DNA of 64,000 nucleotides, from positions 1,057 through 65,056 of the forward strand of contig MNVZ01000010.1 in assembly GCA_001872315.1 (NCBI GenBank), in the 5' to 3' direction. Positions 17 to 23,948 of the stretch are shown here, in pieces. A program made the position numbers and the translations under genes. Positions within the stretch are counted from its first letter, which is position 1. Every line of letters begins with the position of its first letter. The notes beneath the pieces were generated by a model. It made no database searches and was not told the origin of the DNA. It saw nothing but the letters and a program-made list of their open reading frames with translations. Origin of the DNA: Candidatus Pacearchaeota archaeon CG1_02_39_14. Its GTDB lineage: Archaea; Nanobdellota; Nanobdellia; Pacearchaeales; GW2011-AR1.

Positions 17-502
17 ATGAAAAGCAATTTAATTGTGATAAAAAAATCAATAATGCACGGAAAAGGAGCATTTGCAAAAACAGAAATTAAAGAAAAAACA
101 AGAATTATAGAGTATATAGGAAAGAAAGTTACAAAGAAAAGAGGGGATAAAATATATCTGGAGCAGGTAAAAAAAGCTGAAAAAGAGGGAATCCCGGTGA
201 CTACGTACCTTTTTTCAGTAAGCAAAAAATATGATATAGACGGGGATGTTTCATGGAATTCTGCAAAGTACATAAACCACTCATGCAACCCAAACTGTGA
301 AGTTGTTAATGAAGATGGGCACATATGGATAATATCAAAAGAAGATATTAAAAAAGGTGAAGAGATTACTTACGATTATGGATTCCCACTCATTAACTAC
401 AAAGACCATAAATGCAGATGTGGCTCCGAAAGCTGTATGGGTTACATTCTGTCTAAGAGAAGCAGAAAATGGCTGGAAAAAAGATTAACAAAAAGAAAGT
501 AG
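17..502 (+). CDS. SET-domain protein (putative protein lysine methyltransferase)
   Basis: 161 aa ORF with SET signature motifs NHSCNPN and GEEITYDY, followed by a Cys-rich post-SET-like CRCGSESC. Small size resembles archaeal, viral and bacterial mini-SET proteins. 3' end overlaps mnmA by 34 nt. Confidence 0.7.
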   Translation: MKSNLIVIKKSIMHGKGAFAKTEIKEKTRIIEYIGKKVTKKRGDKIYLEQVKKAEKEGIPVTTYLFSVSKKYDIDGDVSWNSAKYINHSCNPNCEVVNEDGHIWIISKEDIKKGEEITYDYGFPLINYKDHKCRCGSESCMGYILSKRSRKWLEKRLTKRK

Positions 503-1575
503 TGCTTGGCTTATCAGGGGGGGTTGATTCAGCCGTTGCTGCGCTTCTTCTAAAAAAGCAGGGTTACGAAGTAATAGGAGCATTCATGAAAAATTTTTCT
601 GACACAAAAAACAAGCTGACAGGAGAATGTTCTTGGAGAGAAGAAAAAAGAATGGCTCAAAAAGTTGCAAGCCATCTAAAAATCCCGCTGAAAGTTTTTG
701 ACTTTGAAAAAGAATATAGAAAATATGTCATAAATCCTATGTATAATGATTACAAAAGGGGATTGACACCAAATCCCGACGCTCTTTGCAATAAGGTAAT
801 TAAATTTCCGTTGTTCTGGAAAAAAGCCAAAAGAATGGGTGCTGATTGCATGGCCATGGGGCACTATATAAAAAAGAAAAAATCAAAGCAGGGATTCACC
901 TTGAGTTTAAATAAAGACGCCGAAAAAGACCAGTCATATTTTCTTTGGCAGCTTACGCAGGAAGATTTGAAACACACCCTGTTCCCAATAGGGGATTACA
1001 CAAAAGAACAGGTGAGAGAAATAGCAAGAAAAAATAATCTCCCAAACGCGGACAAAAAAGGAACAGTAGGGATTTGTTTCGTCGGAAAAATTGATATGAT
1101 TGAATTTCTAGTCAGAAAAATAAAGCAAAAGCCAGGAAAAATAAAAGATCCAGAAGGAAATATTATAGGAAAACATAATGGAATTGCATATTACACTATA
1201 GGGCAGAGAGCTCCAGACAACAAATACTTCCAGATAAGTGCAAAATATAGAAACTCACAGAAAGAGAAAATTTACATAATAGAGAAAGACATAAGGACAA
1301 ATACTCTTGTTGTTGCCCCAAAGGGCCATCCTTCATCATTCAGAAAATCTTTCAGGATAATAAATGCAAATTTTATCAATCCAGTTAAATTCCCACTAAA
1401 AGATATAATGATAAGAATCCGGCATTTAGGGGATTTTCACAAGGCAGATATAAGAAAACAAGGAAACAGAATTACCTGCATCCTCAAGAATCCGCTTTCG
1501 GGTATAGCCCCTGGACAATCAGCAGTAATTTACCATAATTCAAAAATGCTGGGCGGTGGAGAAATTAGACTTTAG
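469..1575 (+). CDS. mnmA: tRNA-specific 2-thiouridylase MnmA (bacterial-type PP-loop ATPase)
   Basis: 368 aa. N-terminal PP-loop VVLGLSGGVDSAVAA. Overall MnmA/TrmU architecture with conserved Cys residues and a C-terminal beta-barrel region. Confidence 0.8.
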   Translation: MAGKKINKKKVVLGLSGGVDSAVAALLLKKQGYEVIGAFMKNFSDTKNKLTGECSWREEKRMAQKVASHLKIPLKVFDFEKEYRKYVINPMYNDYKRGLTPNPDALCNKVIKFPLFWKKAKRMGADCMAMGHYIKKKKSKQGFTLSLNKDAEKDQSYFLWQLTQEDLKHTLFPIGDYTKEQVREIARKNNLPNADKKGTVGICFVGKIDMIEFLVRKIKQKPGKIKDPEGNIIGKHNGIAYYTIGQRAPDNKYFQISAKYRNSQKEKIYIIEKDIRTNTLVVAPKGHPSSFRKSFRIINANFINPVKFPLKDIMIRIRHLGDFHKADIRKQGNRITCILKNPLSGIAPGQSAVIYHNSKMLGGGEIRL

Positions 1576-2535: not shown

Positions 2536-3615
2536 TTATCTAAAAACTTCAATGCCTAAGTCGGATATTTCAGACTTGTGAGGGGCCTTTTCTTCGTAAA
2601 CGTCCTTCCCAAGAATGTAAGGACTCTTTACTCCGGTCATTATTGTAATGACTCTGACTTTGTTTCCAAAGCCCTTGTCAATTCTGGCTCCAATAATGAC
2701 TTGTGCTTCTGGGCTCAAATTCTCAGTAACTAAGTGTCCGACTCCGGAAAATTCATCCAACTTAAAGTCCGAACCGCATGTTATGTGTATCAGTGCTCCA
2801 GTGGCTCCCCTATAATCAACATCCAGCAAAGGATGCGTCAGGGCCTGCCTTACAGCCTCTTCAACTCTGGATTGCGTATCTGCTTCTCCAACTCCGATAA
2901 CTGCCACGTCACCATTTCGCATGATAGATGAAACGTCAGCATAGTCAAGGTTAATCAATGAAGGCAGGGTAATTGTTTCCACGATTCCCTTAATCATTGT
3001 ACTGACCAGCTCGTTAGCTACCGCGAAAGCTTGTTCCATAGGCAGGTTACCAGCAATGTCAACAAGTCTATTGTTGTCAATAACAATAGCAGTGTCAACA
3101 ACTTCTCTAAGCTCCTGCAATCCAAATTCAGCCTTGTCAATTCTTGCTTTTTCACATTCAAAGGGCATTGTAACAACGCCAATAACAACAGATCCTGATT
3201 CTTTAGCAAGCTGTGCAACCACAGGAGCGCATCCTGTTCCGGTTCCACCTCCCATTCCAGCACATACGAAAACCATATCAGCATTGCCGACAGATTTCTT
3301 CAGCTCTGAAAGGGACTCTTTTGCAGCTTCTCTTCCTTTTGCAGGATATCCGCCGCATCCAAGACCTCTTGTCAACTCCTTACCGATGAGAATTTTCTCA
3401 TCAGCTTTGGTAATGCTCAAATGAAGAGCATCCGTGTTGACTCCAAATACAGTAGCTCCGTTGATTCCTTTGTTGAAAAGCCAAGTTATTGTGTTACAGC
3501 CGGCACCTCCACATCCAAAAACCTTGATGTTGGCCTTACCCGCTCTTAGCTCATCGAAGTTAATACTATGCGTTTCCGCATTTTGTATCGCTTCTTTTGC
3601 AAAATCTAGTACCAT
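2536..3615 (-). CDS. ftsZ: cell division protein FtsZ
   Basis: 359 aa. Tubulin/FtsZ GTP-binding signature GMGGGTGTG, N-terminal GCGGAGCN, and conserved NTD motif. Confidence 0.85.
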   Translation of the reverse strand: MVLDFAKEAIQNAETHSINFDELRAGKANIKVFGCGGAGCNTITWLFNKGINGATVFGVNTDALHLSITKADEKILIGKELTRGLGCGGYPAKGREAAKESLSELKKSVGNADMVFVCAGMGGGTGTGCAPVVAQLAKESGSVVIGVVTMPFECEKARIDKAEFGLQELREVVDTAIVIDNNRLVDIAGNLPMEQAFAVANELVSTMIKGIVETITLPSLINLDYADVSSIMRNGDVAVIGVGEADTQSRVEEAVRQALTHPLLDVDYRGATGALIHITCGSDFKLDEFSGVGHLVTENLSPEAQVIIGARIDKGFGNKVRVITIMTGVKSPYILGKDVYEEKAPHKSEISDLGIEVFR

Positions 3616-3734
3616 TTCTCTTTTTTTATACCTCCTTTCATCTATTTAAGAAATCCAGTTGATTTCTCTTTAAATATTTGACTATATTAAATCACAACAT
3701 AAGAACTTAAAAACCACAGAATCCTTTCTAAGAA

Positions 3735-4295
3735 ATGATAGCTCAGAGAGACGACCCCCTGGAGGACGAACAGCTGTTTAAAAGATACCAGAATGGGGAA
3801 AACAATGCCCTTGAAGTTCTTGCCTCAAAATATACTCCTCCTTTATTGGCATGTTTAAGGAGATTTGTAGGAGACTACGCAGAAGACTGCCTCCAAGAGA
3901 CATTTCTGAGAATACATGAAAAAAAGCATCAATTTGATCCAGATAAGTCAGAAGTATTAACCTGGTTTTATGTCATCGCCCGTAATGTTGCCAGGGACAC
4001 TCTAAGAAAAGAAAAAATAAGACCATTTTACGGCCTGACTTTAAATGAAAGGCTTACAGGCACAAGCCAGGACAACTCTGAAGAAGAAATATCAGAAATT
4101 ATTGAAAAAGATATCAAAAGGCTTCCTCCTAAATATCAGGATCTGATTAACATGGTATACTTTAGAGGTAACAGTCTGAGAAATATCTCAAGATCACTTA
4201 ACCTCCCTCTTGGAACAGTGAAAAGAAGGTTGAACCTAGCTCTAGCAGTTTTAAGAAAAAAGATGGACAAAAGCGTTTATCAGCCGGCTGCTTGA
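3735..4295 (+). CDS. ECF-type sigma-70 family RNA polymerase sigma factor (bacterial-type)
   Basis: 186 aa. Region 2 matches YQNGENNALEVL, AEDCLQETFLRIHEK and FDPDKSEVLTWFYVIARNVARDTLRKE. Region 4 matches LPPKYQDLINMVYFRGNSLRNISRSLNLPLGTVKRRLNLALAVLRKKM. Confidence 0.8.
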   Translation: MIAQRDDPLEDEQLFKRYQNGENNALEVLASKYTPPLLACLRRFVGDYAEDCLQETFLRIHEKKHQFDPDKSEVLTWFYVIARNVARDTLRKEKIRPFYGLTLNERLTGTSQDNSEEEISEIIEKDIKRLPPKYQDLINMVYFRGNSLRNISRSLNLPLGTVKRRLNLALAVLRKKMDKSVYQPAA

Positions 4296-5281
4296 TTTCT
4301 TGCAAAGCTTTCTGCAACTAAAATAGGAAAAAGTATTGTCGCGTCTCCAAAGACTTTCATGCTTTTTGCATTCTTCCTGATTTTCCCCCATGAAACGGCT
4401 TCTTCAGGCAATGCACCAGAGTCAGAAGCATCAAACTCCAGGGCTGTATTGATATAAACCGAGTAATCCAGGCCGTTCCTAAGCATGTTTGCATTCAAAA
4501 CCGCATGCTTCACAACGCCTGCGCCAAGAACAATCGCCCCTGATTTTTTCAGCCCGATTGTAAGATCATTAAACCTTTTCACATCTTCTGCAATGTCTAA
4601 AACAAAATCATCTCTCTTGAATTTAAAGAAATAGACATTATCCCCTAAAGCGCCATCGGTAATAGCAGGGCAATAAACTGGAATTTTGTTTTTCCATGCC
4701 CAGTAATATATACTTCTTTCATCATTTATTTTCTCCCCGAGTTTCAATATCAGCTCGGATGGAATAATTGCCTTTCCTTTAGATTCCTGATACAATTCCT
4801 CAAGAATAGGCTGTATCCACTTCTCAAATTCCACATACCTGTTATTTGAAACAAAAATATTTCCTATCCTATTTACTCCCTTCTCACGCAATTCCTTTCC
4901 TGAAGCCCTGAAATCCCCAAGATAAAAATCTCCAAGACACTTGATAAAGTCCTCTTCAATGCCTCCTGCAGTCGTCACAAGGGCGTTGACCTTATTATGC
5001 TTCACAAGCCATCTTATTATATCTCTATTCCCAGAGCTGATCATATTGCTTGTATACCCAAGAAAGATAAAGGCATCATCCTTAATCATATCATTCACAA
5101 CATCAATCGCTTTAGAAAATTCGCTCGCCTGTGCCCCCGAACTGGCAAAACTCTCAATAATCTTAGAATAATCAACTCCTTTATCAAAGTCATATCCCTC
5201 TATCCTAATCCCATTTATTTCAGCCGCACTTCTTAATAGGTTTTCTCTTGCACTCTTCTCATTCTCGTTTGCTTCATCCAT
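4280..5281 (-). CDS. dys: deoxyhypusine synthase
   Basis: 333 aa with overall DHS family similarity (NAD-binding GxxG region, ...TTAGGIEEDFIKC...). Confidence 0.8.
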   Translation of the reverse strand: MDEANENEKSARENLLRSAAEINGIRIEGYDFDKGVDYSKIIESFASSGAQASEFSKAIDVVNDMIKDDAFIFLGYTSNMISSGNRDIIRWLVKHNKVNALVTTAGGIEEDFIKCLGDFYLGDFRASGKELREKGVNRIGNIFVSNNRYVEFEKWIQPILEELYQESKGKAIIPSELILKLGEKINDERSIYYWAWKNKIPVYCPAITDGALGDNVYFFKFKRDDFVLDIAEDVKRFNDLTIGLKKSGAIVLGAGVVKHAVLNANMLRNGLDYSVYINTALEFDASDSGALPEEAVSWGKIRKNAKSMKVFGDATILFPILVAESFARNQAAG

Positions 5282-5311: not shown

Positions 5312-6358
5312 CTATCGCTGAAGCCCAATCCTCTTGGTGATTTCGGGGAGGTCTTTTTTCATAAAATAAGCTCCTGCTGCCTGCCTGTGCCCTCCTCCTC
5401 TTGCATTTTCCAGGCCTTGCAATAACTGTTTCAAAAATAATCCAAGATCAACATTTCCATCCTGCCTTCTGGCGCTTATTGAATATCCATTTTCTTTCTC
5501 ACTCAAAATCATTATGGTTTTATCAGGATATTTTGTGCTTATCATGGTACTAACAAGCCCTCCTACATTAAACCTAGGATTAAAGACAAAAAAGTAGCCT
5601 CCCTCAAATTCAATCCTTTTCTCTTCAAATTCATCCATCGCCCGTTCTACTTCCTTCTCTATCTTAGAGGAATGCTCCTTTAGGTCCCCTATGTCTCCGA
5701 ATGACTCCCCAATAGACTCAAACACTCTCTTCAAATTATCCCTGAAAAAGATTATTGCAAGTCCCAAGTCCCATTGTACCCTATAGATTTCTGATTTGCT
5801 GATATCATCATAAGCAAACCCAAGCTTGTTCATGTAACCCCCTGTCTGGATACCGTATTTTTCAAATATTGCTTTTATCCATTCTCTATTCTTAACATTG
5901 CAAAAATCAGCTATGCAGGCAGATGCAACAAGCCAGTCCAATTTTTCAATGTTCTGCACTTTATTGAAAAGAGAATAGCAAAAGTAAGCTGCACAATACC
6001 CTTCCTCTGCTTTCAGATGTGTGGTCTTATCAGAATTCCAGTCTTTTGAAGGATGATGGTCCAAAATAAGTATTTCTGCAAATGATTCCATAGCTTTCAG
6101 TATCTCTTCTCTTTCAACATACATATCAGAAATAATTATCTTCGTATATCCATCAATCTTCAGCTTTTCGGCGAGTTTCTCATCCACCTCATCATACTGC
6201 AAAATCTTAACATTATCCGCATTCACTACTGCATTCACAACCTTTGCGGAAGTTATTCCATCAAGGTCTACATGGCTTATCAGCACTATCTTGTCTTTCT
6301 CATCCAAATTCTTGATAAAATCAAAAAACCTTTTCTCATTTCCTATCTCAATATTCAT
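5312..6358 (-). CDS. DHH-DHHA1 family phosphoesterase (NrnA/RecJ-like)
   Basis: 348 aa with DHH motif (ILILDHHPS) and C-terminal DHHA1 GGGH motif (ARGGGHRQAAGA). Confidence 0.65.
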   Translation of the reverse strand: MNIEIGNEKRFFDFIKNLDEKDKIVLISHVDLDGITSAKVVNAVVNADNVKILQYDEVDEKLAEKLKIDGYTKIIISDMYVEREEILKAMESFAEILILDHHPSKDWNSDKTTHLKAEEGYCAAYFCYSLFNKVQNIEKLDWLVASACIADFCNVKNREWIKAIFEKYGIQTGGYMNKLGFAYDDISKSEIYRVQWDLGLAIIFFRDNLKRVFESIGESFGDIGDLKEHSSKIEKEVERAMDEFEEKRIEFEGGYFFVFNPRFNVGGLVSTMISTKYPDKTIMILSEKENGYSISARRQDGNVDLGLFLKQLLQGLENARGGGHRQAAGAYFMKKDLPEITKRIGLQR

Positions 6359-9411: not shown

Positions 9412-9786
9412 TTAGAATTTCTGGTCACCACAAAAGTATATCTTTTCATCAATAATCTTATTATCTTTCCAATGCTGGACATTAACTCTATAAATTATTT
9501 TTTTCACTCCTTCTTTATTTTCAATATTAATTGCCCATTCAGTCATAGAAATATTATCTTCTGTTCCTCCAAATGTAACTGAGTTTATTTCAGCATTGTT
9601 TAGTTTTTCTATTTCCTGAAGAAAGATAACCTCTCTTTTTCTATTTGCTTCTTTTCCATGGATAGGGGGATTCCCATTAACTTGCGTAATCACATCATCC
9701 CCATAATATTTCTCAAAAGCCTCCCTTATCTTACCTTCTCTGATTAAGGCATTTAATTTTTCTACATTATTTTTTAGTTTTGACAT
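9412..9786 (-). CDS. NTF2/SnoaL-like fold protein (tandem paralog 2)
   Basis: 124 aa, about 60% identical to the adjacent paralog. Conserved FEKYY, LQEIEKLN and IIDEKIYFCGDQKF blocks. Confidence 0.5.
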   Translation of the reverse strand: MSKLKNNVEKLNALIREGKIREAFEKYYGDDVITQVNGNPPIHGKEANRKREVIFLQEIEKLNNAEINSVTFGGTEDNISMTEWAINIENKEGVKKIIYRVNVQHWKDNKIIDEKIYFCGDQKF

Positions 9787-9804: not shown

Positions 9805-10185
9805 TCAATCTTCTACTTTGAATTTCTGGTCACCACAAAAGTATATCTTTTCATCAATAATCTTATCATCTTTCCAATGTTGAACATTAAGTCTATAAAT
9901 TGTCATCTTTTCCCCTTTCTTGTTCTCTATATTTATCTCCCATTCTGTTACTGAAAAATCATCATTAATCCCTCCAAAAGCAACTAACATTATTTCAGCA
10001 GAGTTTAATTTTTCAATCTCCTGAAGAAATATCATATCTCTTCTTTGTTCTTTTCCAGTTACAGGAGGTTTTCCGTCAAGGTGTATATTTACATCAACAT
10101 TGTAATATTTTTCAAAAGCTTCAGAAATCTTTCCACGTTTAAGTAATGCATTCAATCTGTTTACGTTATCTTTTAAGTCAGTCAT
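9805..10185 (-). CDS. NTF2/SnoaL-like fold protein (tandem paralog 1)
   Basis: 126 aa paralog of 9412-9786. The 3' roughly 75 nt of the coding DNA are nearly identical between the two copies. Confidence 0.5.
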   Translation of the reverse strand: MTDLKDNVNRLNALLKRGKISEAFEKYYNVDVNIHLDGKPPVTGKEQRRDMIFLQEIEKLNSAEIMLVAFGGINDDFSVTEWEINIENKKGEKMTIYRLNVQHWKDDKIIDEKIYFCGDQKFKVED

Positions 10186-12501: not shown

Positions 12502-13800
12502 CTAAGGCTTCGTCCTGGCCATCGTCCTTGGGAATGCAATTGCATCCTTGATTGTATCCAAACCGCAAATCCATTTTATCAGCCTCTCAGTGCCTAATCC
12601 ATATCCTCCGTGAGGAACTGCGCCATACTTATGTATGTCAAAATAATAATCATAATCCTCCAGCTTTTCCCCTTTTGCTTTCAGGCTTTTTTTCAGCTCA
12701 TCAAGGTCAGTATCCCTAACGCTTCCTCCAATCAACTCTCCCTGGGCTTCAGGCCCCAACATATCAAAGCATAGGGCAACTTTCTTGTTCTTAGGATCTG
12801 CAGGCTTGTAGAAAGCCATTGCCTCTTTAGGATAATGAGTTACAAAAACGGGGGTGTCATGCATCTCCATAAACTTTTCTTCTTCAATAGTTCTCAAGTC
12901 CTTGCCCCATTTAATATCTATTTTCTTCTTGTCCTTTAATGCCTTCAGTACTTCATCATAAGTAATTCTTGGAAATTTCTTTTTCAGACTGGGAAGCAGT
13001 TTCTTTATATCTCTCTCCAAAAATTCCAGTTCTTCCCTATTTTCCTCAAGCACTTTTTTTATGACGAATTTAGTCATCTCTTCAGCATAGCCCATTATCT
13101 CATCAAGGTCGGCCCATGCGACCTCCATTTCAGTATGCCAATATTCTGTCAGATGTCTTGAAGTATTGGATTTTTCCGCTCTGAATGAAGGGGCAACAGT
13201 ATATATCTTCTCAAGGGCATAAATTGCAGCTTCAGCATATAGCTGCCATGTCTGCGCCAAATACATCTTCTTCCCGAAATACTTGATTTCAAACATGCTC
13301 GGTCCATCTTCGGCCCCACCTGGAATCATTAAAGGGGATTGAAACTCGTAAAATTTCTTACTTCTGAAATACTCATGCAATGCTCCTATGACTGTGCTTC
13401 TTATCTTCAATATAGCAGACATCTTCCTGCTTCTAATCCACAAGTGTCTTCTGTCTCCTAAAAGTTCCTCGTTCAAATCCTTATTTATTGGAAAACTGTC
13501 GCTCTCCCCAACAATCTCAATTTTTTCAGCATGTATCTCATATCCTGAAGGCGCTCTCTTATCCTCTTTTATAGTTCCCCACACTTTCATACTTGCCTCA
13601 ATCTGCAATTTATCTATCTCATTCCAAGAATCCTGGAAATCCTTTTTCTCAAAAACGCACTGGATTATGTCCGAGCTGTCACGAAGAACAATAAACTTCA
13701 ACGCGTTCGAACCTCGCTCTCTGTGAATCCATCCGCGCACAGCTACCTTTCCCTTTCCTTTCTTCATAGCTTCTTTGATTGAGATAAACTCTGATTTCAT
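12502..13800 (-). CDS. asnS: class IIb aminoacyl-tRNA synthetase, AsnRS-like
   Basis: 432 aa with an N-terminal OB fold (VRGWIHRERGSNALKFIVLRD), motif 2 FRAEKSNTSRHLTEYWHTEMEVAW and motif 3 GYGLGTERL. AsnRS versus AspRS assignment is tentative. Confidence 0.55.
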   Translation of the reverse strand: MKSEFISIKEAMKKGKGKVAVRGWIHRERGSNALKFIVLRDSSDIIQCVFEKKDFQDSWNEIDKLQIEASMKVWGTIKEDKRAPSGYEIHAEKIEIVGESDSFPINKDLNEELLGDRRHLWIRSRKMSAILKIRSTVIGALHEYFRSKKFYEFQSPLMIPGGAEDGPSMFEIKYFGKKMYLAQTWQLYAEAAIYALEKIYTVAPSFRAEKSNTSRHLTEYWHTEMEVAWADLDEIMGYAEEMTKFVIKKVLEENREELEFLERDIKKLLPSLKKKFPRITYDEVLKALKDKKKIDIKWGKDLRTIEEEKFMEMHDTPVFVTHYPKEAMAFYKPADPKNKKVALCFDMLGPEAQGELIGGSVRDTDLDELKKSLKAKGEKLEDYDYYFDIHKYGAVPHGGYGLGTERLIKWICGLDTIKDAIAFPRTMARTKP

Positions 13801-15086
13801 GGCTTCACCCTTTCCGGATCTCTTGTCAATAGTAAAGCTTCCCTGATATTCTCAAGGTTCAGCAATCTCTGTATAAGCCTGTCAAGACCCATTCCTGCAC
13901 CACCATGCGGAATAGCCCCATATTTGAATATAGCCGCATATATAGGATCTATTTTAACACCTTTCTCCTTTGCTTGTTTCTCTAAAATATCTAATCTGTG
14001 CTCTCTCTGTGCACCAGTTGTAACTTCTACTCCTCTCCACAGCAGGTCAAAGCTTCTTGTCAATTTTTTGTTATCCGGCCTCATATGATAAAAAGGCCTA
14101 ACGCTTGCAGGATACTCTGTAACGAAAACAAACTCTTCCCCATACTTCTTGAGAACATACTCTCCTATCATCTTTTCTGCTTCAGAATCTAAATCATCAT
14201 CTTCCTTCAGCTTCTTTCCCTTATCAGCCAAAACTTTCTTCAGTTCAGACATAGGAATTCTTGGTATTTTTTTAGGAATTTTAATATCGACTCCAAGTTT
14301 TTTTAATTCACTCTCCCTTTCCTTCTTAATATTCTGAATAACATATTTCATCATTTCTTCTAAAACATCCATAACATCATTCTCATCTTTTATGAATCCC
14401 ATCTCAATATCTGCCCCCATAAATTCCGTCAGGTGTCTTGTAGTATGGGATTTTTCAGCCCGGTAAACAGCGCCTATCTCAAAGACTCTTTCAAATCCTC
14501 CCATGACAAACATCTGCTTGTAAAACTGCGGGCTCTGCGCAAGATACACTTTTTTATCAAAATATTTTACTTCAAAAGATTCCGCTCCTGATTCAAGCCC
14601 GATTGTTGTCAGTTTAGGAGTATTAATTATAGTGAATCCGTTACCCTCAAAAAAATCAGACATGTGTCTGTAGAAGCTGCTCCTTACCTTGAATATCGCA
14701 TTTATCTCCCTCTTCCTTGTATCCAAAAATCTGTAATCCAGTCTTGTAGGAAGATTTGCATCACTTGCTTTCTCCTTAACCTGGATAGGAAGACTTTCGG
14801 ATTTACTGATTATTTTTATGCTCTCAACTTCTATTTCCAGGTCCTTTCTCTCAATATCAGATTTTATGCTTGCTTTTTTTGCTCTTCCTTCAATTTCCAC
14901 AACATATTCATCTCCAATACCATCCGTTTCATTCATCAAGTCCCCAGAAACAACACACTGCACTATTCCAGTATAATCCCTTAAAAGCAAAAACTTCAGT
15001 TTAGACAGGCTCCTGATCTCATGGACCCACCCTTTTAGCAAAACGGGCTTCCCGACTTTTATATCCCTCACAAGAGTTCTTTCCAT
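13797..15086 (-). CDS. aspS: aspartyl-tRNA synthetase (archaeal/eukaryal type)
   Basis: 429 aa with motif 2 YRAEKSHTTRHLTEFMGADIEMGF and C-terminal GAGMGLDRL...TRDPERVKP. ATGA overlap with the downstream paralog. Confidence 0.6.
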   Translation of the reverse strand: MERTLVRDIKVGKPVLLKGWVHEIRSLSKLKFLLLRDYTGIVQCVVSGDLMNETDGIGDEYVVEIEGRAKKASIKSDIERKDLEIEVESIKIISKSESLPIQVKEKASDANLPTRLDYRFLDTRKREINAIFKVRSSFYRHMSDFFEGNGFTIINTPKLTTIGLESGAESFEVKYFDKKVYLAQSPQFYKQMFVMGGFERVFEIGAVYRAEKSHTTRHLTEFMGADIEMGFIKDENDVMDVLEEMMKYVIQNIKKERESELKKLGVDIKIPKKIPRIPMSELKKVLADKGKKLKEDDDLDSEAEKMIGEYVLKKYGEEFVFVTEYPASVRPFYHMRPDNKKLTRSFDLLWRGVEVTTGAQREHRLDILEKQAKEKGVKIDPIYAAIFKYGAIPHGGAGMGLDRLIQRLLNLENIREALLLTRDPERVKP

Positions 15087-15091: not shown

Positions 15092-16543
15092 TTATTCCCC
15101 AACAATCCTTTTAATTATTTCCATCGCCTTCTTAGCATCCAGTTTTCCCTTAAACTTGGCCATTACTATTCCCATATAAGCATTCTCTCTCAACCCCGGC
15201 TTTTCTTTCACAATCTTCCTTATCTCTTCCTCAAGTTCATCATGACTTGCCTTTTCTACTTTAACTGCATCTGCAAAATGCACTCCAGAAGATATCTTTT
15301 GCATGACTTCCTTCACATCCCTAGGATTAATTTCTCCGGAATCCACTAGCTCTAGTATTTCTTCAAGCTTTCTTTCATCCAAAATATGCCTGACCTCTTC
15401 CAATGGCTTATTTTCTTTTGTGGCTATTTCCCTTGGCCAAAGAGCAATCATCTTGGCTATTAAGTTAGCATCCTTGTCATGTACCTGGATTAATGCAAAG
15501 AATTCATCTGCCGCATCTTCATTAATAACAAGCTTAATCATCTCATCAGATAATCCTTTCTTCTTCAATTCTTCTTTGATATCGGACCTCAATTTTGGCA
15601 GGTTCTTTTTCAATAAATCGATCCTTTTTTTATCAACCCTTAAAAGCTCCAGGTCAGTTTCCGGATACATTCGTGCCTTTCCAGGAATCGGACGGAGAAA
15701 TTCTGTCTCCCCGAACTCTTTTGCATTTCTTACCTCTCCAGATTTTTTCCCCTTCTTTATATCCTGCAACTGCCTCTCAATTTCCAAGTCAATGGTCTTA
15801 ACAAACATCCTCGGTTCCTGAAATCCCTTTATCTCAACTCTATCATGTCCTTTTATAGAAACATTAACATCTTGCCTAATTGTTCCAATCCCTCTTTTAA
15901 CCTTACACGCTCTCAATATCTCTCCTATTTTCAAAGCACACTCCTTAACCTGTTCAGGATTTTTCATACTTGGACTGGTAGCTATTTCAATCAAAGGAAT
16001 TCCAAGCCTGTCCAGCCTGTATAAGACACTCTCCTTGCCTCTTTCAATAACCCTCGCAGAATCTTCTTCTAGTGCAACAGTATCAACTTCAACTTTTCCA
16101 AAACTTGTTTCCAGAAATCCAGAGTGTCCTATAAGAACAGTTCTTTGAAATCCTGAAGTGTTTGAGCCATCAATGACTGTCTTTCTCATTACCTGAGTAA
16201 CAGGATAAATTTCGCAATTCAGCAATAAAGCTATTTGCAATCCAATTTCCAGGGCTTCTTCATTCAAATTTTCAGGAGGGGACTCGTCCAATTCAACAAG
16301 AGAAGTAGTATCTTTATAGGCCTCATAAATAAACTCCTTATCTAATCTTGCTTCATGTTTGACGGCAACATCAACTTCTCCCTCCTCCCCTGCAACAGCG
16401 TGCAGTTTTCTCTTTATAGTATAATCTCCCTTGTCATTTCTAAGAAAATTAGGAGCATTTGAAAAAAGTTTCTTAGCAGAATCTATTTGCTGGTGTATTT
16501 CCAGGCCTGCCTTGAATCCCAATTTTTTGTAATTATAAGCCAT
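15092..16543 (-). CDS. gatE: Glu-tRNA(Gln) amidotransferase subunit E-like (GatE/GatB family)
   Basis: 483 aa with N-terminal LGFKAGLEIHQQI and a C-terminal GatB/YqeY-like tail. Sits 1.4 kb upstream of gatD. Shorter than canonical GatE. Confidence 0.6.
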   Translation of the reverse strand: MAYNYKKLGFKAGLEIHQQIDSAKKLFSNAPNFLRNDKGDYTIKRKLHAVAGEEGEVDVAVKHEARLDKEFIYEAYKDTTSLVELDESPPENLNEEALEIGLQIALLLNCEIYPVTQVMRKTVIDGSNTSGFQRTVLIGHSGFLETSFGKVEVDTVALEEDSARVIERGKESVLYRLDRLGIPLIEIATSPSMKNPEQVKECALKIGEILRACKVKRGIGTIRQDVNVSIKGHDRVEIKGFQEPRMFVKTIDLEIERQLQDIKKGKKSGEVRNAKEFGETEFLRPIPGKARMYPETDLELLRVDKKRIDLLKKNLPKLRSDIKEELKKKGLSDEMIKLVINEDAADEFFALIQVHDKDANLIAKMIALWPREIATKENKPLEEVRHILDERKLEEILELVDSGEINPRDVKEVMQKISSGVHFADAVKVEKASHDELEEEIRKIVKEKPGLRENAYMGIVMAKFKGKLDAKKAMEIIKRIVGE

Positions 16544-17962: not shown

Positions 17963-19219
17963 TCATCCTGCCAGGAACTCATTAAACTCGCCTGCAAAAT
18001 TCTCAAGCAATTTTTCCTTTTCCTTGCCTTTCCAGTTTCTATGTCCTAAAACCCATCCTAATTTTACGAAAGCCGTTTCAGAAAGCATGTCTTTCAAATA
18101 CAAAACGCCTGCCTTCTCCAATTCCCTTCCGGTAGAATATACTTTGGGATTCAAAGCCCCATAAATTGTCCCTGCAGTGCCACAGATAATCATTCCTGAC
18201 TTAACACAATTTTTAATTTTGCCAATCCATCCAGAATTAACATGCCCAAGCCCAGTCATCTCGATTACAATTCCTTTGTGCCCTTTCTCCTTATAGTAAT
18301 CTAAAATACCAGGGTCCTGCCCAGGATAAAATTTCACTAAAGCAACTTTGTTGCTGAAGCTATCATCCAATTCCAATTTTTCTATATTCTGATTTCCTAC
18401 ATTATACTCTTCAAGAAATTCAACCTTTCCCCCAATTTTAGCAATTGGCTTACAATTTATCGCCTTGAAGGTGTCTCTTCTTGAAGTATGCATCTTCCTG
18501 ACTTTAGTTCCCCGCAAAGCATAGCAGCAATCATCACTCTCTGATGCATGCCCGACAATAACAACTTCAGCACAATTAGACAAAGCAAATTTTGCAGCAC
18601 ATTCTAAATTAAGTTCGGCATCGCTGCTTGCCCTGTCAATGCTTCTCTGCGAAAATGTCAAAACAACTGGTTTGTTCAGATTCTTAAGCATAAAACTCAA
18701 AACCGAAGAAGTATAATGCAATGTGTCCGAGCCGTGTGTTATTATAACTCCCTTAATCTCCTTGTCATCACACATCTTTTTTGCTTCCTTGGCAATTAGC
18801 TTCCAGTGTCCTGAATCCATATTCTCTGACAGCTCCATAAAAGGAGAGCTTATTTTAATGTCATATTTTTCAAACAATCCTGGATAAAACTGCGCAAACT
18901 CGCCAACATCAGTCAATGCCTTCACTCCTCCAGTACGCGAATCCAATTTACTCGCAATCGTCCCTCCCGTAACTATCAGCCCAATCTTCGGCTTCCCCTT
19001 TGAACTTGGAATCTTATATTCCTTTTTCTCTTCCTTATACTTCCTTATTACATTTATCTCAAAAACATTTTCCTTTGGAATTCCAATATTGTACCCTGAT
19101 TCCAGCTTAACAAGAATAACGTCCTTATCATAGCTCTCTAAAATTATCCCTTTGATTTCTTTCTTAGCCAGTTTTACAGAAACATAATCCCCTGCATTTG
19201 CCTTAATTTCCATAATCAA
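17963..19219 (-). CDS. gatD: Glu-tRNA(Gln) amidotransferase subunit D
   Basis: 418 aa with an asparaginase-like domain carrying the active-site motif GLIVTGGTIASK plus the N-terminal GatD-specific domain. Confidence 0.8.
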   Translation of the reverse strand: MIMEIKANAGDYVSVKLAKKEIKGIILESYDKDVILVKLESGYNIGIPKENVFEINVIRKYKEEKKEYKIPSSKGKPKIGLIVTGGTIASKLDSRTGGVKALTDVGEFAQFYPGLFEKYDIKISSPFMELSENMDSGHWKLIAKEAKKMCDDKEIKGVIITHGSDTLHYTSSVLSFMLKNLNKPVVLTFSQRSIDRASSDAELNLECAAKFALSNCAEVVIVGHASESDDCCYALRGTKVRKMHTSRRDTFKAINCKPIAKIGGKVEFLEEYNVGNQNIEKLELDDSFSNKVALVKFYPGQDPGILDYYKEKGHKGIVIEMTGLGHVNSGWIGKIKNCVKSGMIICGTAGTIYGALNPKVYSTGRELEKAGVLYLKDMLSETAFVKLGWVLGHRNWKGKEKEKLLENFAGEFNEFLAG

Positions 19220-19760: not shown

Positions 19761-19854
19761 TTCTGAAAGTTGACAATCCATCAATGAACTTAGTTCGTAA
19801 CTTAATAGTTAATACAATGGAAACTTATTTAAATTATAAAAATATAAACAAATC

Positions 19855-20802
19855 ATGAAAACAAGAAGACCGGGGATAAGTGCTTTAATAAGATGTAAAG
19901 ATGAAGAAGATTTTGTATATTTAAGTTTACTCTCTATTAAAGATTCTGTCGACGAGATCATTTTTATTGATAATGCCTCATGTGATAATAGCATAAACGA
20001 AGCTAAAAGATTTAGGGATTCTCATTTTAAAAATAAAAGATTTGTTCTGGATTCTTATGAAAAAGATACATTTACTGGAGATAATCTTGCAGAAATGAAT
20101 AATTATGCATTATCAAAAACAGAAGGAGAATGGATATTTAAGTGGGATGTTGATACTATTGCCCAAACTAAAGGAAATCATTCCCTTTATAAGATTAGAG
20201 AAGCAATTAAAAGAAAAGATATAGACATATTCAGGTTCGGCTATTGGAATCTATGGGGAGATCCATTTCATTTCATTTCTAATAGTAAGGATGAACCCGA
20301 ATACGGACCAACAGGTTGCGGATTTGAAATGCAAGGTTTAGAACAGAGACTTTTTAGATTTGATGAATCATTTTATTATAGTATGACTCAATATGGGGAG
20401 CATTTTTGGGAGAGACCAAATTTTCCTTCTGGATTTAAACAAGAATATTTAGAATTCATTCCTGGAGTTCATATGCAAACAGTAAAACCTTCAGAGATTA
20501 TAGCTCGGAGGTATTTTCTTACCCGATATGGTCCAAAGGAAAGGGAAAGTTACAAAACATTTTTAGATTTTGTAATGTCTGAAGTAAGAAAAGAAGGGTT
20601 TAGTAACCTTCTAGATTTTGGGAAATTTTTATTAATTGATAAAGTAAATAAACAAGGTAGAAAATTTGAAAGAGAATATCCTATCACGTTAGAGTCTTCC
20701 GATTTGCTAAAAAAACCTCCCTATCTATTTTTATTTGAAGGAAGCATATGCATAGACCGAACAGAACCAATTAAACGATTTAATTACTTTGAGTTAAAAT
20801 GA
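19855..20802 (+). CDS. glycosyltransferase family 2
   Basis: 315 aa with an N-terminal GT-A fold and DxD-like signature (ISALIRCKDEEDF...IFIDNASCDNS). Confidence 0.7.
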   Translation: MKTRRPGISALIRCKDEEDFVYLSLLSIKDSVDEIIFIDNASCDNSINEAKRFRDSHFKNKRFVLDSYEKDTFTGDNLAEMNNYALSKTEGEWIFKWDVDTIAQTKGNHSLYKIREAIKRKDIDIFRFGYWNLWGDPFHFISNSKDEPEYGPTGCGFEMQGLEQRLFRFDESFYYSMTQYGEHFWERPNFPSGFKQEYLEFIPGVHMQTVKPSEIIARRYFLTRYGPKERESYKTFLDFVMSEVRKEGFSNLLDFGKFLLIDKVNKQGRKFEREYPITLESSDLLKKPPYLFLFEGSICIDRTEPIKRFNYFELK

Positions 20803-21887
20803 AAATACTCAGCTCTCTACATTCATATAATATTACTGGAGTTTTAAAGCAAAATATATCCTTATTAAAATATCTGAGAACTAGTGCTGGAATAGATGCT
20901 TTAGTTATTGGTCCAAATAAGAATTTGGGAATGGAAATTCTTGAAGAAGAAGGATTTATTGCTGAGACTACTTTTGGAAGATCAATTAATGATATTTTAC
21001 ATAGGCACAATTTCCATCCCGATCTTATTTTATCAGAATCTTTATTTTCCTCCGATGTTTCTGATTTATCTAAAGAAATAGGAGCAAAACATATTATTCG
21101 CATTCATGAAGAAATACCATTTCAATCAGGAAAGGGACTATGGTTATTACCTTATAGACCAATCAACGAATATTTCCAAAAGTTTAGAAATTCGAAAGTG
21201 ATCTTTCCATCAAGCCATACTGCTAATCATTACAGAATGCCATTGCAAGAATTTGACATTGATTTTAGTGTGATTCATGGTTCTATAGATGAAGAAAGAT
21301 TAAAAGAACAAAAAGAAGTGTTGAATTTTAGTGATTTTCAGATATTACAACTTGGAACACTTTATGAGAGAAAGGGAGGAATAAATACTTTAGAATCTTT
21401 TTTTAATTTTTTGAATAAAGAAGGAGTGGAAAACGCTAATCTAATTTTCGCAGGAGTAAGGAATGCAAATGAAAAAGAAATTCAATACAAAGAGAGACTA
21501 GAAAGAAGAGCAAAAGAGCTCGGAATTGAGGAAAAGGTCAGATTTTATGATTCGATGAAAAACCCGTATGCGTTAATGAAGGGATCTTCTATAGTAACAT
21601 TACATTCTTATTCAGAATGTTTTCCAACTGTTTTTTTGGAAGCAATGTATTTCGGAAAAATGATAGTCTCTAGTAATGTTGGAGGAGTAGGTGAACAAGT
21701 ATATGAAGGCGTCACAGGGTATTTATTCAATTCTGGGGACATTAATGAACAGTCTAATGCATTTTCAAAGTTATATGATGAAAGACATTTACTAGAGAGT
21801 AAAAGTAAGATTATAAAAGATAGATACATTGATTATTTTTCACAAGAATCTTCAGGAGATAAATTTTTAAATTTTTTAGAAAAATGA
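20799..21887 (+). CDS. glycosyltransferase family 4 (GT-B, group 1)
   Basis: 362 aa with C-terminal GT1/GT4 motif (EAMYFGKMIVSSNVGGVGEQVYEGVTGYLF). ATGA coupling on both sides. Confidence 0.75.
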   Translation: MKILSSLHSYNITGVLKQNISLLKYLRTSAGIDALVIGPNKNLGMEILEEEGFIAETTFGRSINDILHRHNFHPDLILSESLFSSDVSDLSKEIGAKHIIRIHEEIPFQSGKGLWLLPYRPINEYFQKFRNSKVIFPSSHTANHYRMPLQEFDIDFSVIHGSIDEERLKEQKEVLNFSDFQILQLGTLYERKGGINTLESFFNFLNKEGVENANLIFAGVRNANEKEIQYKERLERRAKELGIEEKVRFYDSMKNPYALMKGSSIVTLHSYSECFPTVFLEAMYFGKMIVSSNVGGVGEQVYEGVTGYLFNSGDINEQSNAFSKLYDERHLLESKSKIIKDRYIDYFSQESSGDKFLNFLEK

Positions 21888-23935: not shown

Positions 23936-23948
23936 AACAATGATTTAT

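What the first reader, a model, noticed from the sequence alone, without database searches (positions are those of the whole stretch)
3735..4295. Bacterial ECF sigma-70 factor encoded in an otherwise archaeal (TBP/TFE/RpoL) genome
The ORF has textbook sigma-70 region 2 (FDPDKSEVLTWFYVIARNVARDTLRKE) and region 4 (LGTVKRRLNLALAVLRKKM) signatures. The same window encodes TBP, TFE-alpha, RNAP subunit L and Alba, so the host machinery is archaeal. An orphan ECF sigma factor with no adjacent anti-sigma has no obvious partner polymerase here. It is either a recent bacterial acquisition, possibly from a host or co-resident bacterium, or has been repurposed as a DNA-binding regulator. Either way it is unusual.
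Basis: partly seen in the sequence, partly recalled or inferred. Interest (0 to 1): 0.65.

Follow-up and report, generated by a model that had tools for sequence, protein, structure and literature searches.

The report
Swappable bacterial-type sigma gene in Pacearchaeota
A small DPANN archaeon (Pacearchaeota) really does carry an intact bacterial-style ECF sigma factor gene; this has been reported before for DPANN archaea, but here the gene proves to be an optional, very fast-changing cassette at one fixed site next to ftsZ, and its partner and function are unknown.

Summary
Observation confirmed. ORF 3735-4295(+) encodes a 186-aa canonical group-4 (ECF) sigma-70 protein by Pfam, NCBIfam, PDB sequence, AlphaFold and Foldseek. 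The window is archaeal: TBP, TFE-alpha, RpoL, Alba, GatD, Nre and deoxyhypusine synthase are all present.

It is not chimeric. The identical FtsZ / sigma / DHS junctions recur in independent assemblies. GC and GC3 match the host. The gene sits behind the host's usual leaderless TATA box.

It is not a recent bacterial import. The best non-orthologous relative among 1.84 billion representatives is about 35-42% identical.

It is not new as a phenomenon. Castelle et al. 2021 reported sigma-70 genes without anti-sigma in DPANN, and GenBank already names this protein (Ca. Pacearchaeota CG_4_9_14_0_2_um_filter_39_13).

New here: the gene is an accessory cassette.
- It is the fastest-evolving gene of its block (38-46% identity, against 83-96% for FtsZ and DHS).
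- It is absent from two relatives with the same synteny.
- One lineage carries a reproducible in-frame stop.
- Two genomes 92-100% identical in the ftsZ-side flank carry alleles only 29% identical.

Sigma2 hallmark residues stay conserved. The mechanism is inferred: a non-essential regulator that still uses its RNAP-clamp and DNA-binding surfaces, probably on the archaeal machinery.

The parts
3735..4295 (+). ECF (group 4) sigma-70 family gene, 186 aa
   Evidence: ORF. Pfam r2 and r4, TIGR02937. PDB sequence hits to SigE, SigW and sigmaE. AlphaFold2 pLDDT 87. Foldseek top hits are all ECF sigmas.
3756..4019 (+). Sigma2 domain (residues 8-95). It carries AEDCLQETF (region 2.2, the clamp-helix-binding motif in bacteria), F67 and W77 (base pockets) and N84 (melting residue).
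   Evidence: Helices 8-19, 23-62 and 74-95 in the model. 1.0 A rmsd to E. coli sigmaE2 bound to -10 DNA, 4lup. Hallmark positions are kept in all alleles. Residue roles come from PMC6648896. Pfam r2 scores 44-55 bits in all five alleles.
4020..4073 (+). Flexible sigma2-sigma4 linker (residues 96-113), variable in length and sequence between alleles
   Evidence: No secondary structure in the model; mean pLDDT of the 10-residue blocks covering residues 91-120 is 70, 49 and 72. Indels in the allele alignments.
4074..4277 (+). Sigma4 domain (residues 114-181) with helix-turn-helix and recognition helix LPLGTVKRRLNLA
   Evidence: Pfam r4 and r4_2. Model helices 114-128, 132-143, 148-155 and 159-181. 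P158, G160, T161, K163 and R165 are conserved in the three closest alleles. It is weaker in L170 (17 bits) and lies after the stop codon in L169.
3706..3714 (+). CTTAAAAAC: TATA-like box 29-21 nt before the ATG, the predicted archaeal promoter of a leaderless sigma mRNA
   Evidence: Conserved in window, L006, L007 and L169. About 30 of 61 genes in the window have such a hexamer centred -30..-21. The adjacent DHS gene has CTTAAAAAT at the same offset. Function is inferred, not measured.
3663..3686 (-). 24-nt block invariant in window, L006 and L007 (TTTCTCTTTAAATATTTGACTATA on the + strand): the ftsZ BRE/TATA region, not a sigma-specific site
   Evidence: Invariant in three genomes with saturated synonymous sites. 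Its core, GACTATA/TTTAAATATTTG, is also kept in the sigma-less L171 and partly in L174.
3690..4295 (.). Approximate extent of the variable sigma cassette (promoter-proximal boundary to the overlap with the DHS stop)
   Evidence: Window against sigma-less L171: a clean gap at about 3690-4280. Window against L006: nucleotide identity 52-59% at 3697-4284, against 79-89% in the flanks. L007 against L169: 53-58% over the ORF, against 92-100% on the ftsZ side.
2536..3615 (-). ftsZ, the conserved flank, transcribed divergently from sigma (119-bp spacer)
   Evidence: Pfam Tubulin and FtsZ_C. 85-99% aa identity among relatives.
4280..5281 (-). Deoxyhypusine synthase, the conserved flank, convergent; its 3' end overlaps the sigma 3' end by 16 bp
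   Evidence: Pfam DS, 375 bits. Coordinates. 73-89% aa identity among relatives.

Best explanation
Shown:
- The ORF is a genuine, intact, two-domain ECF-type sigma-70 family gene resident in the chromosome of a Pacearchaeota (DPANN) archaeon.
- It occupies a fixed site between ftsZ and the deoxyhypusine synthase gene.
- It behaves as an accessory cassette. It is present, absent, nonsense-truncated, or replaced by a very different allele among close relatives. It is the fastest-evolving gene of its neighbourhood, yet it stays open and keeps the sigma hallmark residues.

Inferred:
- It is transcribed by the archaeal machinery from a host-type TATA box as a leaderless mRNA.
- Its bacterial origin is old. 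Later turnover happened by exchange of divergent alleles among Pacearchaeota through the conserved flanks.
- It works as a non-essential transcription regulator that still uses sigma's own surfaces. These are the polar region-2.2 face, which binds the RNAP clamp coiled-coil in bacteria, the sigma2 single-strand and sigma4 helix-turn-helix DNA contacts.
- The most likely target is the archaeal RNAP clamp coiled-coil, the structural homologue of the beta-prime clamp helices, at a subset of promoters.

My confidence by step: identity and archaeal residence about 0.97; accessory, swappable cassette about 0.85; RNAP-contacting regulator on the archaeal machinery about 0.3.
For: Identity:
- (Pfam, NCBIfam, PDB sequence, AlphaFold2, Foldseek).

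Archaeal residence, not chimeric:
- Archaeal markers across the window.
- The identical protein and junctions occur in independent ENA and JGI assemblies. The index lists it in 32 blocks, and 23 contigs were read.
- Host-like GC and GC3.
- GenBank records from Ca. Pacearchaeota Crystal Geyser MAGs.

Archaeal promoter:
- TTAAAA starts at -28, as in the DHS gene, on the positional peak shared by about half of the genes.
- The element is conserved in relatives.

Selection:
- The ORF is open in four lineages. The chance of 186 open codons in this composition is about 1e-5.
- pN is 0.38-0.41, below pS at 0.61-0.78.
- Hallmark positions are kept: E50, D51, Q54, F57, W77, G160, T161 and K163 are invariant in all five alleles. 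N84 is kept in four of five.

Fast turnover:
- Sigma is 38-46% identical between genomes whose FtsZ is 90-96% and DHS 83-89% identical.
- dN is 0.53-0.60 against 0.02-0.31 for neighbours.
- The gene is absent in L171 and L174, which share the synteny.
- An in-frame TAA is identical in three independent assemblies.
- L007 and L169 are 92-100% identical in nucleotides over about 3.2 kb, but 53-58% over the sigma ORF and 29% in protein.
- The L169 allele scores higher against bacterial-like ECFs than against the other archaeal alleles.

Sigma2 carries the constraint:
- Pfam r2 scores 44-55 bits in all alleles. r4 falls to 17 bits in L170, and in L169 it lies after the stop.
Against: - No expression, binding or structural data exist for any archaeal sigma homologue.
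- Conservation of D51, Q54, E55, F67 and W77 could reflect folding rather than a retained interface.
- Only five alleles are available, so site-wise tests have little power, and dS is saturated.
- Loss, truncation and replacement among close relatives fit a gene of marginal value.
- The rest of the genome was not examined, so no partner or regulon is identified.
- Whether sigma2 can dock on an archaeal clamp coiled-coil is untested.
- The DHS-only neighbour-joining tree is poorly supported (10-54% on key nodes), so gain against loss in L171 is unresolved.
Confidence: 0.55

Rival explanations
1. An ordinary stand-alone DNA-binding regulator. The protein has been domesticated as a bacterial-type transcription factor. 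It binds operator DNA through the sigma4 helix-turn-helix, perhaps with sigma2, near TATA/BRE. It represses or activates without contacting RNAP in the sigma manner.
For: The sigma4 recognition helix (GTVK.R) is conserved in most alleles. By established knowledge, most archaeal gene-specific regulators are bacterial-type HTH proteins. No bacterial RNAP is expected in the cell.
Against: Sigma4 is the less constrained domain: 17 bits in L170, and separated by a stop in L169. Sigma2 keeps 44-55 bits everywhere. The surface residues used for clamp-helix binding and melting (D51, Q54, N84) stay conserved, although a pure HTH regulator would not need them.
Confidence: 0.22
2. A decaying or nearly neutral remnant of an old horizontal transfer, with no current function.
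For: It is the fastest-evolving gene in the block. It is absent in L171 and L174. A nonsense allele recurs across samples. Sigma4 is degenerate in L170.
Against: Four lineages keep a 186-202 codon ORF open although synonymous sites are saturated and the chance of that is about 1e-5 per lineage. pN is below pS. The family hallmark residues are retained. A host-type promoter is conserved.
Confidence: 0.1
3. An effector aimed at a bacterial RNA polymerase. The sigma is passed to, or acts within, a bacterial partner or prey and redirects its core RNAP. Allele diversity then reflects an inter-organism arms race.
For: All residues needed for bacterial core and promoter binding are kept. There is no anti-sigma. 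The cassette pattern is hypervariable and swappable.
Against: No signal peptide or secretion context was seen, but no signal-peptide prediction was run. From my own knowledge, all cultivated DPANN have archaeal hosts (abstract of PMC11291902, listed), and no Pacearchaeota-bacterium association is known. There is no hit to defence or viral families beyond generic sigma.
Confidence: 0.05
4. A recent transfer from a co-resident bacterium.
For: The family is overwhelmingly bacterial. The best labelled non-orthologous hits are bacterial: Phycisphaerales, Aminicenantia, Longimicrobiaceae and Paenibacillus.
Against: No relative is above about 35-42% identity among 1.84 billion representatives; only two hits have E<1e-30, and both are archaeal orthologues. 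GC and GC3 equal the host's in every allele. The promoter is archaeal. The locus is shared by at least five lineages.
Confidence: 0.04
5. A mis-binned or chimeric bacterial fragment.
For: None beyond the bacterial affiliation of the family.
Against: The gene lies inside a 64-kb window with archaeal genes on both sides. The same junctions occur in independent assemblies, on contigs up to 118 kb. Orthologues in two other species show the same synteny.
Confidence: 0.01

Closest known systems
Bacterial ECF (group 4) sigma factors, e.g. E. coli sigmaE/RpoE, B. subtilis SigW, R. sphaeroides SigE, P. aeruginosa AlgU
   Same: The sigma2-linker-sigma4 architecture and size are the same. Pfam and TIGR02937 membership is met. 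The fold matches: Foldseek top hits are 1or7, 6in7 and 5wur, and sigma2 superposes on 4lup at 1.0 A. Conserved residues match: region 2.2 DxxQE, F67 and W77 pockets, N84 melting residue, GTVK.R recognition helix.
   Different: It is encoded in an archaeon whose basal machinery is TBP, TFE and archaeal RNAP. It has no anti-sigma neighbour. It has no ECF-type autoregulated promoter and instead a host TATA box at -28. It falls below the cut-off of every NCBIfam equivalog (best is SigW, 86 bits against 209). It evolves far faster than its neighbours and is swapped between relatives.
Sigma-70 family proteins of DPANN archaea (fam00359) reported by Castelle et al. 2021, Front Microbiol (PMC8204110)
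   Same: These are bacterial-type sigma-70 homologues on archaeal contigs. No anti-sigma was found, mis-binning was excluded by co-encoded markers, and the control mechanism was stated to be unclear.
   Different: That report stresses Woesearchaeota and gives no locus-level analysis. Whether this Pacearchaeota protein is in fam00359 could not be checked: the supplements held as text have no entry. The cassette behaviour, presence/absence, nonsense allele and promoter are described here.
ECF groups that lack a cognate anti-sigma and are controlled by transcription, phosphorylation or C-terminal extensions (my own knowledge of the ECF classification of Staron et al. 2009 and later work)
   Same: Orphan ECF gene with no anti-sigma. 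Control would have to be at the level of its own expression.
   Different: No C-terminal extension: the protein ends 5 residues after the last sigma4 helix. Region 2.2 acidic residues are intact, unlike the phosphorylation-dependent ECFs. The ECF group could not be assigned with the libraries available.
Nuclear-encoded plastid sigma factors of plants and algae (my own knowledge)
   Same: A sigma-70 family protein maintained in a non-bacterial genome.
   Different: Plastid sigmas serve a co-resident bacterial-type (plastid-encoded) RNA polymerase. No bacterial-type polymerase is expected in a DPANN cell, and none is in this window.

Membership tests
ECF (group 4) sigma-70 family | Sigma-70 region 2 domain | tested here: met
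   PF04542: 54 bits against cut-off 24, residues 30-94. All five alleles score 44-55 bits.
ECF (group 4) sigma-70 family | Sigma-70 region 4 domain with helix-turn-helix | tested here: met
   PF04545: 36.2 bits against 24.1. PF08281: 33.7 bits against 25.7. Below cut-off in the L170 allele.
ECF (group 4) sigma-70 family | Only sigma2 and sigma4 joined by a short linker; no region 1.1 or region 3 domain; about 170-220 aa | tested here: met
   186 aa. No region 1.1 or region 3 Pfam hits. The AlphaFold2 model has two helical domains, 8-95 and 114-181, with an unstructured linker.
ECF (group 4) sigma-70 family | Curated family model TIGR02937 (sigma70-ECF) above its cut-off | tested here: met
   93.2 bits against 42.9, covering model positions 2-165 of 165.
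ECF (group 4) sigma-70 family | Fold equal to solved ECF sigma structures | tested here: met
   The first 20 Foldseek PDB hits are all ECF sigmas (1or7, 6in7, 5wur, 6dv9, 6jbq and others). Sigma2 superposes on 4lup at 1.0 A rmsd over 84 columns.
ECF (group 4) sigma-70 family | Conserved functional residues: region 2.2 polar face, -10 base pockets and melting Asn, -35 recognition helix | tested here: met
   A49, E50, D51, Q54, E55, T56 and F57 are present. F67, W77 and N84 are equivalent to sigmaE F64, W73 and N80. P158, G160, T161, V162, K163 and R165 are present. Roles come from PMC6648896; the equivalence uses my alignment to the E. coli RpoE sequence recalled from memory, whose numbering agrees with the paper. 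Departures from the family majority: E150 becomes N, R167 becomes N, W61 becomes H.
ECF (group 4) sigma-70 family | Binds bacterial core RNA polymerase and directs promoter-specific initiation | not testable with these tools
   No biochemical data. No bacterial RNAP gene is in the window. The rest of the genome was not examined.
ECF (group 4) sigma-70 family | Co-encoded cognate anti-sigma factor (typical of most ECF groups, not universal) | tested here: not met
   The neighbours are ftsZ and deoxyhypusine synthase in the window and in the L006, L007, L169 and L170 contexts. No anti-sigma family appears among about 60 window ORFs scanned.
ECF (group 4) sigma-70 family | Membership of a named ECF group or equivalog (SigW, RpoE, SigM, SigK and others) | tested here: not met
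   All NCBIfam equivalog and subfamily models score far below their cut-offs, e.g. SigW 86 against 209 and RpoE 61.9 against 236. ECF-Hub group models were not available.
ECF (group 4) sigma-70 family | Positive autoregulation from an ECF-type (-35 AAC / -10 CGT) promoter upstream of its own gene | tested here: inconclusive
   By eye, no conserved bipartite ECF-like motif appears in the 119-bp spacer. The conserved elements are a TATA-like box at -29..-21 and the ftsZ promoter block. No formal motif model was run.
DPANN sigma-70-like proteins (Castelle et al. 2021) | Sigma-70 homologue on a contig with archaeal, taxonomically informative genes, from a DPANN lineage, without anti-sigma | tested here: met
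   Ca. Pacearchaeota MAG proteins PJC44713.1, OIO43864.1 and NCO11247.1. Archaeal markers in the window. Description of the family. Formal membership of fam00359 could not be checked.
Anti-phage defence or viral sigma families | Match to a PADLOC defence model, or a close relative on viral contigs | tested here: not met
   PADLOC: no hit for sigma alleles or neighbours. PHROGs: only the generic sigma family phrog_1740. IMG/VR: best 33% identity, ordinary bacterial-virus ECFs.

The most novel reading that the evidence does not exclude
The ECF sigma is a working cross-domain factor. Its sigma2 domain docks on the archaeal RNAP clamp coiled-coil, the site used by TFE and Spt5, and redirects or modulates archaeal transcription. 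Alternatively, it is delivered to a bacterial partner's RNAP. In either case, the rapid allele swapping at the ftsZ-DHS locus reflects diversifying selection in a host-symbiont or virus conflict. Either version would be the first functional sigma factor used by an archaeon.
Probability: 0.15. Interest if true: 0.9.

Novelty: new member of a known kind. Interest (0 to 1): 0.45.

Why it matters
Sigma factors define bacterial transcription initiation, and archaea use TBP, TFB and TFE instead. Here a sigma gene stays open and keeps its RNAP-binding and DNA-melting residues inside an archaeon. That raises the question of what it binds. If it binds the archaeal clamp coiled-coil, that would show this docking site is interchangeable across domains. 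It would also add a new class of archaeal regulator.

The locus-level findings make the question sharper and testable. The relevant features are optional presence, a truncated allele and swapping of 29%-identical alleles between near-identical genomes. The natural alleles, including a sigma2-only one and sigma-less relatives, are ready-made contrasts for metatranscriptomics and in vitro binding.

The basic observation is already in the literature and in GenBank annotation, so the surprise for a specialist is moderate.

Tried and rejected
- Chimeric or mis-binned contig: rejected. Junctions are identical in independent assemblies, synteny holds in other species, and GC is flat.
- Recent bacterial donor: the exhaustive HMMER search found only two close hits, both archaeal orthologues. 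The GTDB scan gave at best 31-34% (Phycisphaerales) and did not contain this lineage at all. The profile search jumped from 323 bits (orthologues) to 107 bits (bacteria).
It returned only distant ECFs (33% or less) and not even the window's own contigs, so it was uninformative.
- The first word-index protein search found only 4 weak hits and missed the orthologues.
- Viral origin: IMG/VR gave only generic ECFs at 33% or less. PHROGs gave only the generic sigma family.
- Defence-system link: PADLOC gave no hits.
- I first considered the 24-nt invariant block at 3663-3686 as a possible sigma operator. I rejected this because its core is kept in the sigma-less L171 and L174. It is the ftsZ promoter.
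- The in-frame stop in L169 as an assembly error: rejected. The 640-nt sequence is identical in NCBI, JGI and Logan assemblies.
- L169 as a fast-decaying orthologue of the L007 allele: rejected. It matches bacterial-like ECFs better (81 bits) than its supposed orthologues (24-51 bits), and it keeps the strongest sigma2 score. Allele replacement fits better.
- The DHS neighbour-joining tree was meant to polarise gain against loss, but key nodes have only 10-54% support. FtsZ and DHS give conflicting affinities for L171 (97% against 78% to the window), so the locus is a recombination breakpoint.
- dN/dS: synonymous sites are saturated (dS above 1.2 or undefined), so only pN below pS and relative dN can be used. 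Two earlier scripts failed on a file-lookup bug.
- Supplements of Castelle et al. 2021 held as text contain no fam00359 or sigma entry.
- Other literature hits for sigma with Pacearchaeota or Woesearchaeota were irrelevant.
Full report
**1. The observation**

It is a textbook ECF sigma.
- Pfam Sigma70_r2 scores 54 bits (cut-off 24) and Sigma70_r4 36 bits (cut-off 24.1). Sigma70_r4_2 and Sigma70_ECF are also above cut-off.
- NCBIfam TIGR02937 'sigma70-ECF' scores 93.2 bits against 42.9. Every named equivalog (SigW, RpoE, SigM and others) is far below its cut-off.
- The closest solved structures by sequence are R. sphaeroides SigE, B. subtilis SigW, AlgU and E. coli sigmaE.
- An AlphaFold2 model built on 148 homologues has mean pLDDT 87. 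It shows two helical domains, 8-95 and 114-181, joined by an unstructured linker.
- The first 20 Foldseek PDB hits are all ECF sigma factors. Sigma2 superposes on E. coli sigmaE2 bound to -10 DNA (4lup) at 1.0 A.

**2. The host is archaeal and the contig is not chimeric**

Pfam confirms the archaeal context:
- TBP at 39424-39996 and Nre at 38270-39427, plus ATP-dependent DNA ligase and RadB.
- TFE-alpha at 51054-51950.
- An RpoL-type subunit at 46367-46618, Alba at 61204-61518 and ribosomal protein S17e.
- GatD and a GatB/E-type subunit.
- Deoxyhypusine synthase immediately next to the sigma gene.

GC is flat across the region. The gene's GC of 0.392 and GC3 of 0.353 fall within the range of its neighbours.

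The exact protein is indexed in 32 blocks of the assembly collection. The 23 contigs read come from independent ENA and JGI samples, and the places shown all have the same FtsZ / sigma / DHS arrangement, with eIF-1A and eIF-2-beta further upstream.

The sequence belongs to Crystal Geyser MAGs of Candidatus Pacearchaeota (PJC44713.1, OIO43864.1, NCO11247.1). NCBI already names it 'sigma-70 family RNA polymerase sigma factor'.

**3. Prior knowledge**

Castelle et al. 2021 (PMC8204110) reported sigma-70 family genes in DPANN genomes, most prevalent in Woesearchaeota. They excluded mis-binning, found no anti-sigma factors, and stated that the controlling mechanism is unclear. In 2009, MiST2 listed no ECF proteins in its 67 complete and 2 draft archaeal genomes (PMC2808908). 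So the phenomenon is rare in archaea but already described, and its function is unexplained.

**4. Origin**

An exhaustive HMMER scan of 1.84 billion cluster representatives found 60,961 relatives but only two with E<1e-30 (45% and 42% identity). After those comes a flat cloud at about 30-42%. Both close hits lie in the same synteny, with ftsZ divergent at exactly 119 bp and DHS convergent, on other archaeal contigs (L006, L007).
- A profile of the three sequences scores the two orthologues listed (L006, L007) at 323-331 bits. The next protein scores 107 bits and is bacterial (Aminicenantia, Longimicrobiaceae).
- The GTDB species-representative scan found no archaeal orthologue. Its best hits were Phycisphaerales at 31-34%.
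- IMG/VR holds nothing closer than 33%.
- All alleles have the GC content of their own host locus.

There is therefore no identifiable donor and no sign of recent import.

**5. Expression signals**

In this window, a TATA-like hexamer is centred 30-21 nt before the start codon in about 30 of 61 genes, against 1-5 per 5-nt bin elsewhere. This indicates mostly leaderless mRNAs. The sigma gene has CTTAAAAAC at -29..-21. That is the same offset as CTTAAAAAT in front of the adjacent DHS gene. The element is conserved in L006, L007 and L169.

The 24-nt block at 3663-3686 is invariant in window, L006 and L007. Its core is also kept in relatives that lack the sigma gene, so it is the ftsZ promoter and not a sigma site. 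I saw no conserved ECF-type bipartite promoter in the spacer. That judgement was by eye, not by a formal motif model.

**6. The new result: an accessory, hypervariable cassette**

*Rate of change.*

| Protein | aa identity among window, L006 and L007 |
|---|---|
| FtsZ | 90-96% |
| DHS | 83-89% |
| MBL hydrolase | 76-90% |
| MnmA | 66-68% |
| Sigma | 38-46% |

Non-synonymous divergence of sigma is 0.53-0.60, against 0.02-0.31 for neighbours. Synonymous sites are saturated everywhere.

*Presence and absence.* I used DHS homologues as anchors.
- The gene is at the same site in L170. There it is 202 aa, with sigma4 down to 17 bits.
- It is also at the same site in Ca. Pacearchaeota CG1_02_32_132 (L169).
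- It is absent in L171 and L174, where DHS is followed directly by ftsZ (76 and 90 bp). The MBL-DHH-DHS-FtsZ-nitroreductase-MnmA order is otherwise the same.

*A truncated allele.* In L169 the reading frame carries one in-frame TAA after codon 128. A still-recognisable sigma4 follows it. The 640-nt sequence is identical in NCBI, JGI and Logan assemblies, so the stop is real.

*Allele replacement.* L007 and L169 are near-identical genomes.
- FtsZ is 99% identical, MnmA 95% and nitroreductase 94% in protein.
- Nucleotide identity is 92-100% over about 3.2 kb. It collapses to 53-58% exactly over the sigma ORF and recovers to about 83% in DHS.
- The two sigma proteins are 29% identical.
- The L169 allele matches bacterial-like ECFs better (81 bits) than it matches the other archaeal alleles (24-51 bits, rank 202-273 of 273).

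The boundary on the ftsZ side lies just after the sigma TATA box. Window against L006 shows the same island: 52-59% over the ORF against 79-89% in the flanks.

L171 is 97% identical to the window in FtsZ but only 78% in DHS, so the site is also a recombination breakpoint.

I read this as exchange of divergent alleles among Pacearchaeota through the conserved flanks. Direct bacterial import is less likely, because every allele is compositionally ameliorated and shares the host promoter. This reading is an inference.

**7. Still under selection**

In this base composition, 186 codons stay open by chance with probability about 1e-5. Four lineages keep a 186-202 codon ORF. pN (0.38-0.41) is below pS (0.61-0.78).

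Across all five alleles the invariant positions are D11, E12, L14, A25, L29, Y33, E50, D51, Q54, F57, W77, K92, R144, G145, G160, T161 and K163. Most of these coincide with positions that are conserved in the 145 other, bacterial-like ECF relatives.

Fang et al. 2019 (PMC6648896) give residue roles for E. coli sigmaE. I aligned the window protein to the E. coli RpoE sequence recalled from memory; its numbering agrees with the paper.
- The polar region-2.2 face that binds the beta-prime clamp helices is kept (D51, Q54, E55).
- The T-10 and C-9 pockets are kept: sigmaE F64 and W73 correspond to F67 and W77.
- The melting residue sigmaE N80 corresponds to N84, which is kept in four of five alleles.
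- Six of the seven hydrophobic sigma4 positions that bind the beta flap tip are hydrophobic in the window protein.

Sigma2 is the more constrained domain: 44-55 bits in every allele. Sigma4 weakens in L170 and is cut off in L169.

**8. How it most likely works**

*Shown:* a canonical ECF fold and residues; chromosomal residence in an archaeon; no anti-sigma; no paralogue in the window; accessory and swappable behaviour.

*Inferred:* it is transcribed by the archaeal machinery from its own TATA box.

The surfaces that bind the RNAP clamp coiled-coil and melted DNA in bacteria are the most conserved parts of a very fast-changing protein. I therefore think the likeliest mode is a non-essential regulator that still docks on an RNAP clamp coiled-coil. 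In this cell that means the archaeal Rpo1N coiled-coil, which is the structural homologue of the beta-prime clamp helices and the TFE/Spt5 site. This rests on established knowledge of multisubunit RNAP architecture and was not tested here. The protein would also contact DNA through sigma2 and sigma4. I give this about 0.3.

Alternatives:
- A plain stand-alone HTH regulator, about 0.2.
- A nearly neutral remnant, about 0.1.
- A factor aimed at a bacterial partner's RNAP, about 0.05.
- Recent bacterial import or chimerism: contradicted by the data.

**9. Comparison and membership**

By every sequence and fold criterion I could test, it is a member of the ECF sigma-70 family. It is not a member of any named equivalog group. 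It lacks the usual anti-sigma partner. The biochemical definition, binding bacterial core RNAP and directing initiation, cannot be tested here. It also fits the DPANN sigma-70 set described in 2021. It has no link to known defence systems or to viruses.

**10. Verdict**

What this analysis adds is that the gene is an optional, rapidly exchanged cassette at a fixed site next to ftsZ, with sigma2 under the stronger constraint. That makes the open question of what a sigma factor binds in an archaeon more concrete and testable. Novelty: new member of a known kind. Interest: moderate (0.45).

Noticed in passing
window 19800-25800: Low-GC island (GC 0.27-0.33, against about 0.39 elsewhere). It holds two glycosyltransferases, an APH/choline-kinase-like gene, a bacterial-type LD-carboxypeptidase (Peptidase_S66) and a transposase-like ORF (24838-25776). 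It looks like a horizontally acquired surface or cell-wall gene island.
   Followed up: partly
window 5312-6358 (-), compared with L006: The DHH/DHHA1 phosphoesterase gene two genes from sigma is also very diverged between window and L006 (50-65% nucleotide identity with many gaps). L006 has an extra MYG1-family gene inserted there. So sigma is not the only variable spot in this block.
   Followed up: no
window 3616-3650 and upstream of ORF 40075-40893 (-): ftsZ and the unannotated 272-aa ORF 40075-40893 share the leader AGATGAAAGGAGGTA (a strong Shine-Dalgarno) just before their start codons. About half of the genes instead look leaderless, with a TATA-like box at -30..-21.
   Followed up: partly
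window 9412-9786 and 9805-10185 (-): Tandem paralogues of 124 and 126 aa with clearly similar sequences. Pfam, run on the first only, found no match. They lie in a locally low-GC stretch.
   Followed up: no
window 12502-13800 and 13797-15086 (-), 15092-16543 (-), 17963-19219 (-): Two adjacent class II Asp/Asn/Lys-type tRNA synthetase paralogues sit next to a GatB/E-type amidotransferase subunit and GatD. This is a cluster for Asx/Glx-tRNA formation.
   Followed up: no
window 51054-51950 (-): The TFE-alpha homologue is 298 aa. The TFIIE_alpha match covers only residues 31-133, so it has a long uncharacterised C-terminal part.
   Followed up: no
window 17-502 and 469-1575 (+); L006 6570-8135: A SET-domain gene overlaps the start of bacterial-type MnmA (tRNA 2-thiouridylase). 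In L006 the two are called as one fused 521-aa ORF.
   Followed up: no
window 30545-31243 (-) and tRNA-Arg 31185-31258 (-): The mechanically listed ORF overlaps a tRNA-Arg gene on the same strand, so its true start is probably further downstream.
   Followed up: no
window 35673-36362, 49755-50333, 55155-55946 and others: Several other bacterial-flavoured genes are present: undecaprenyl-diphosphate synthase, SpoIIM, BacA/UppP and ScpB. [quoted passage not shown]
   Followed up: no
P0412 (cluster of P0066): An ECF-like protein named 'RNA polymerase subunit sigma' is attributed to a Methanomethylicota/Verstraetearchaeota MAG (RLE47787.1, contig 5 kb). A Methanosarcinales MAG contig with coverage 0.36 also carries an ECF (L043). 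These are possible further archaeal sigma genes or mis-binned contigs.
   Followed up: no
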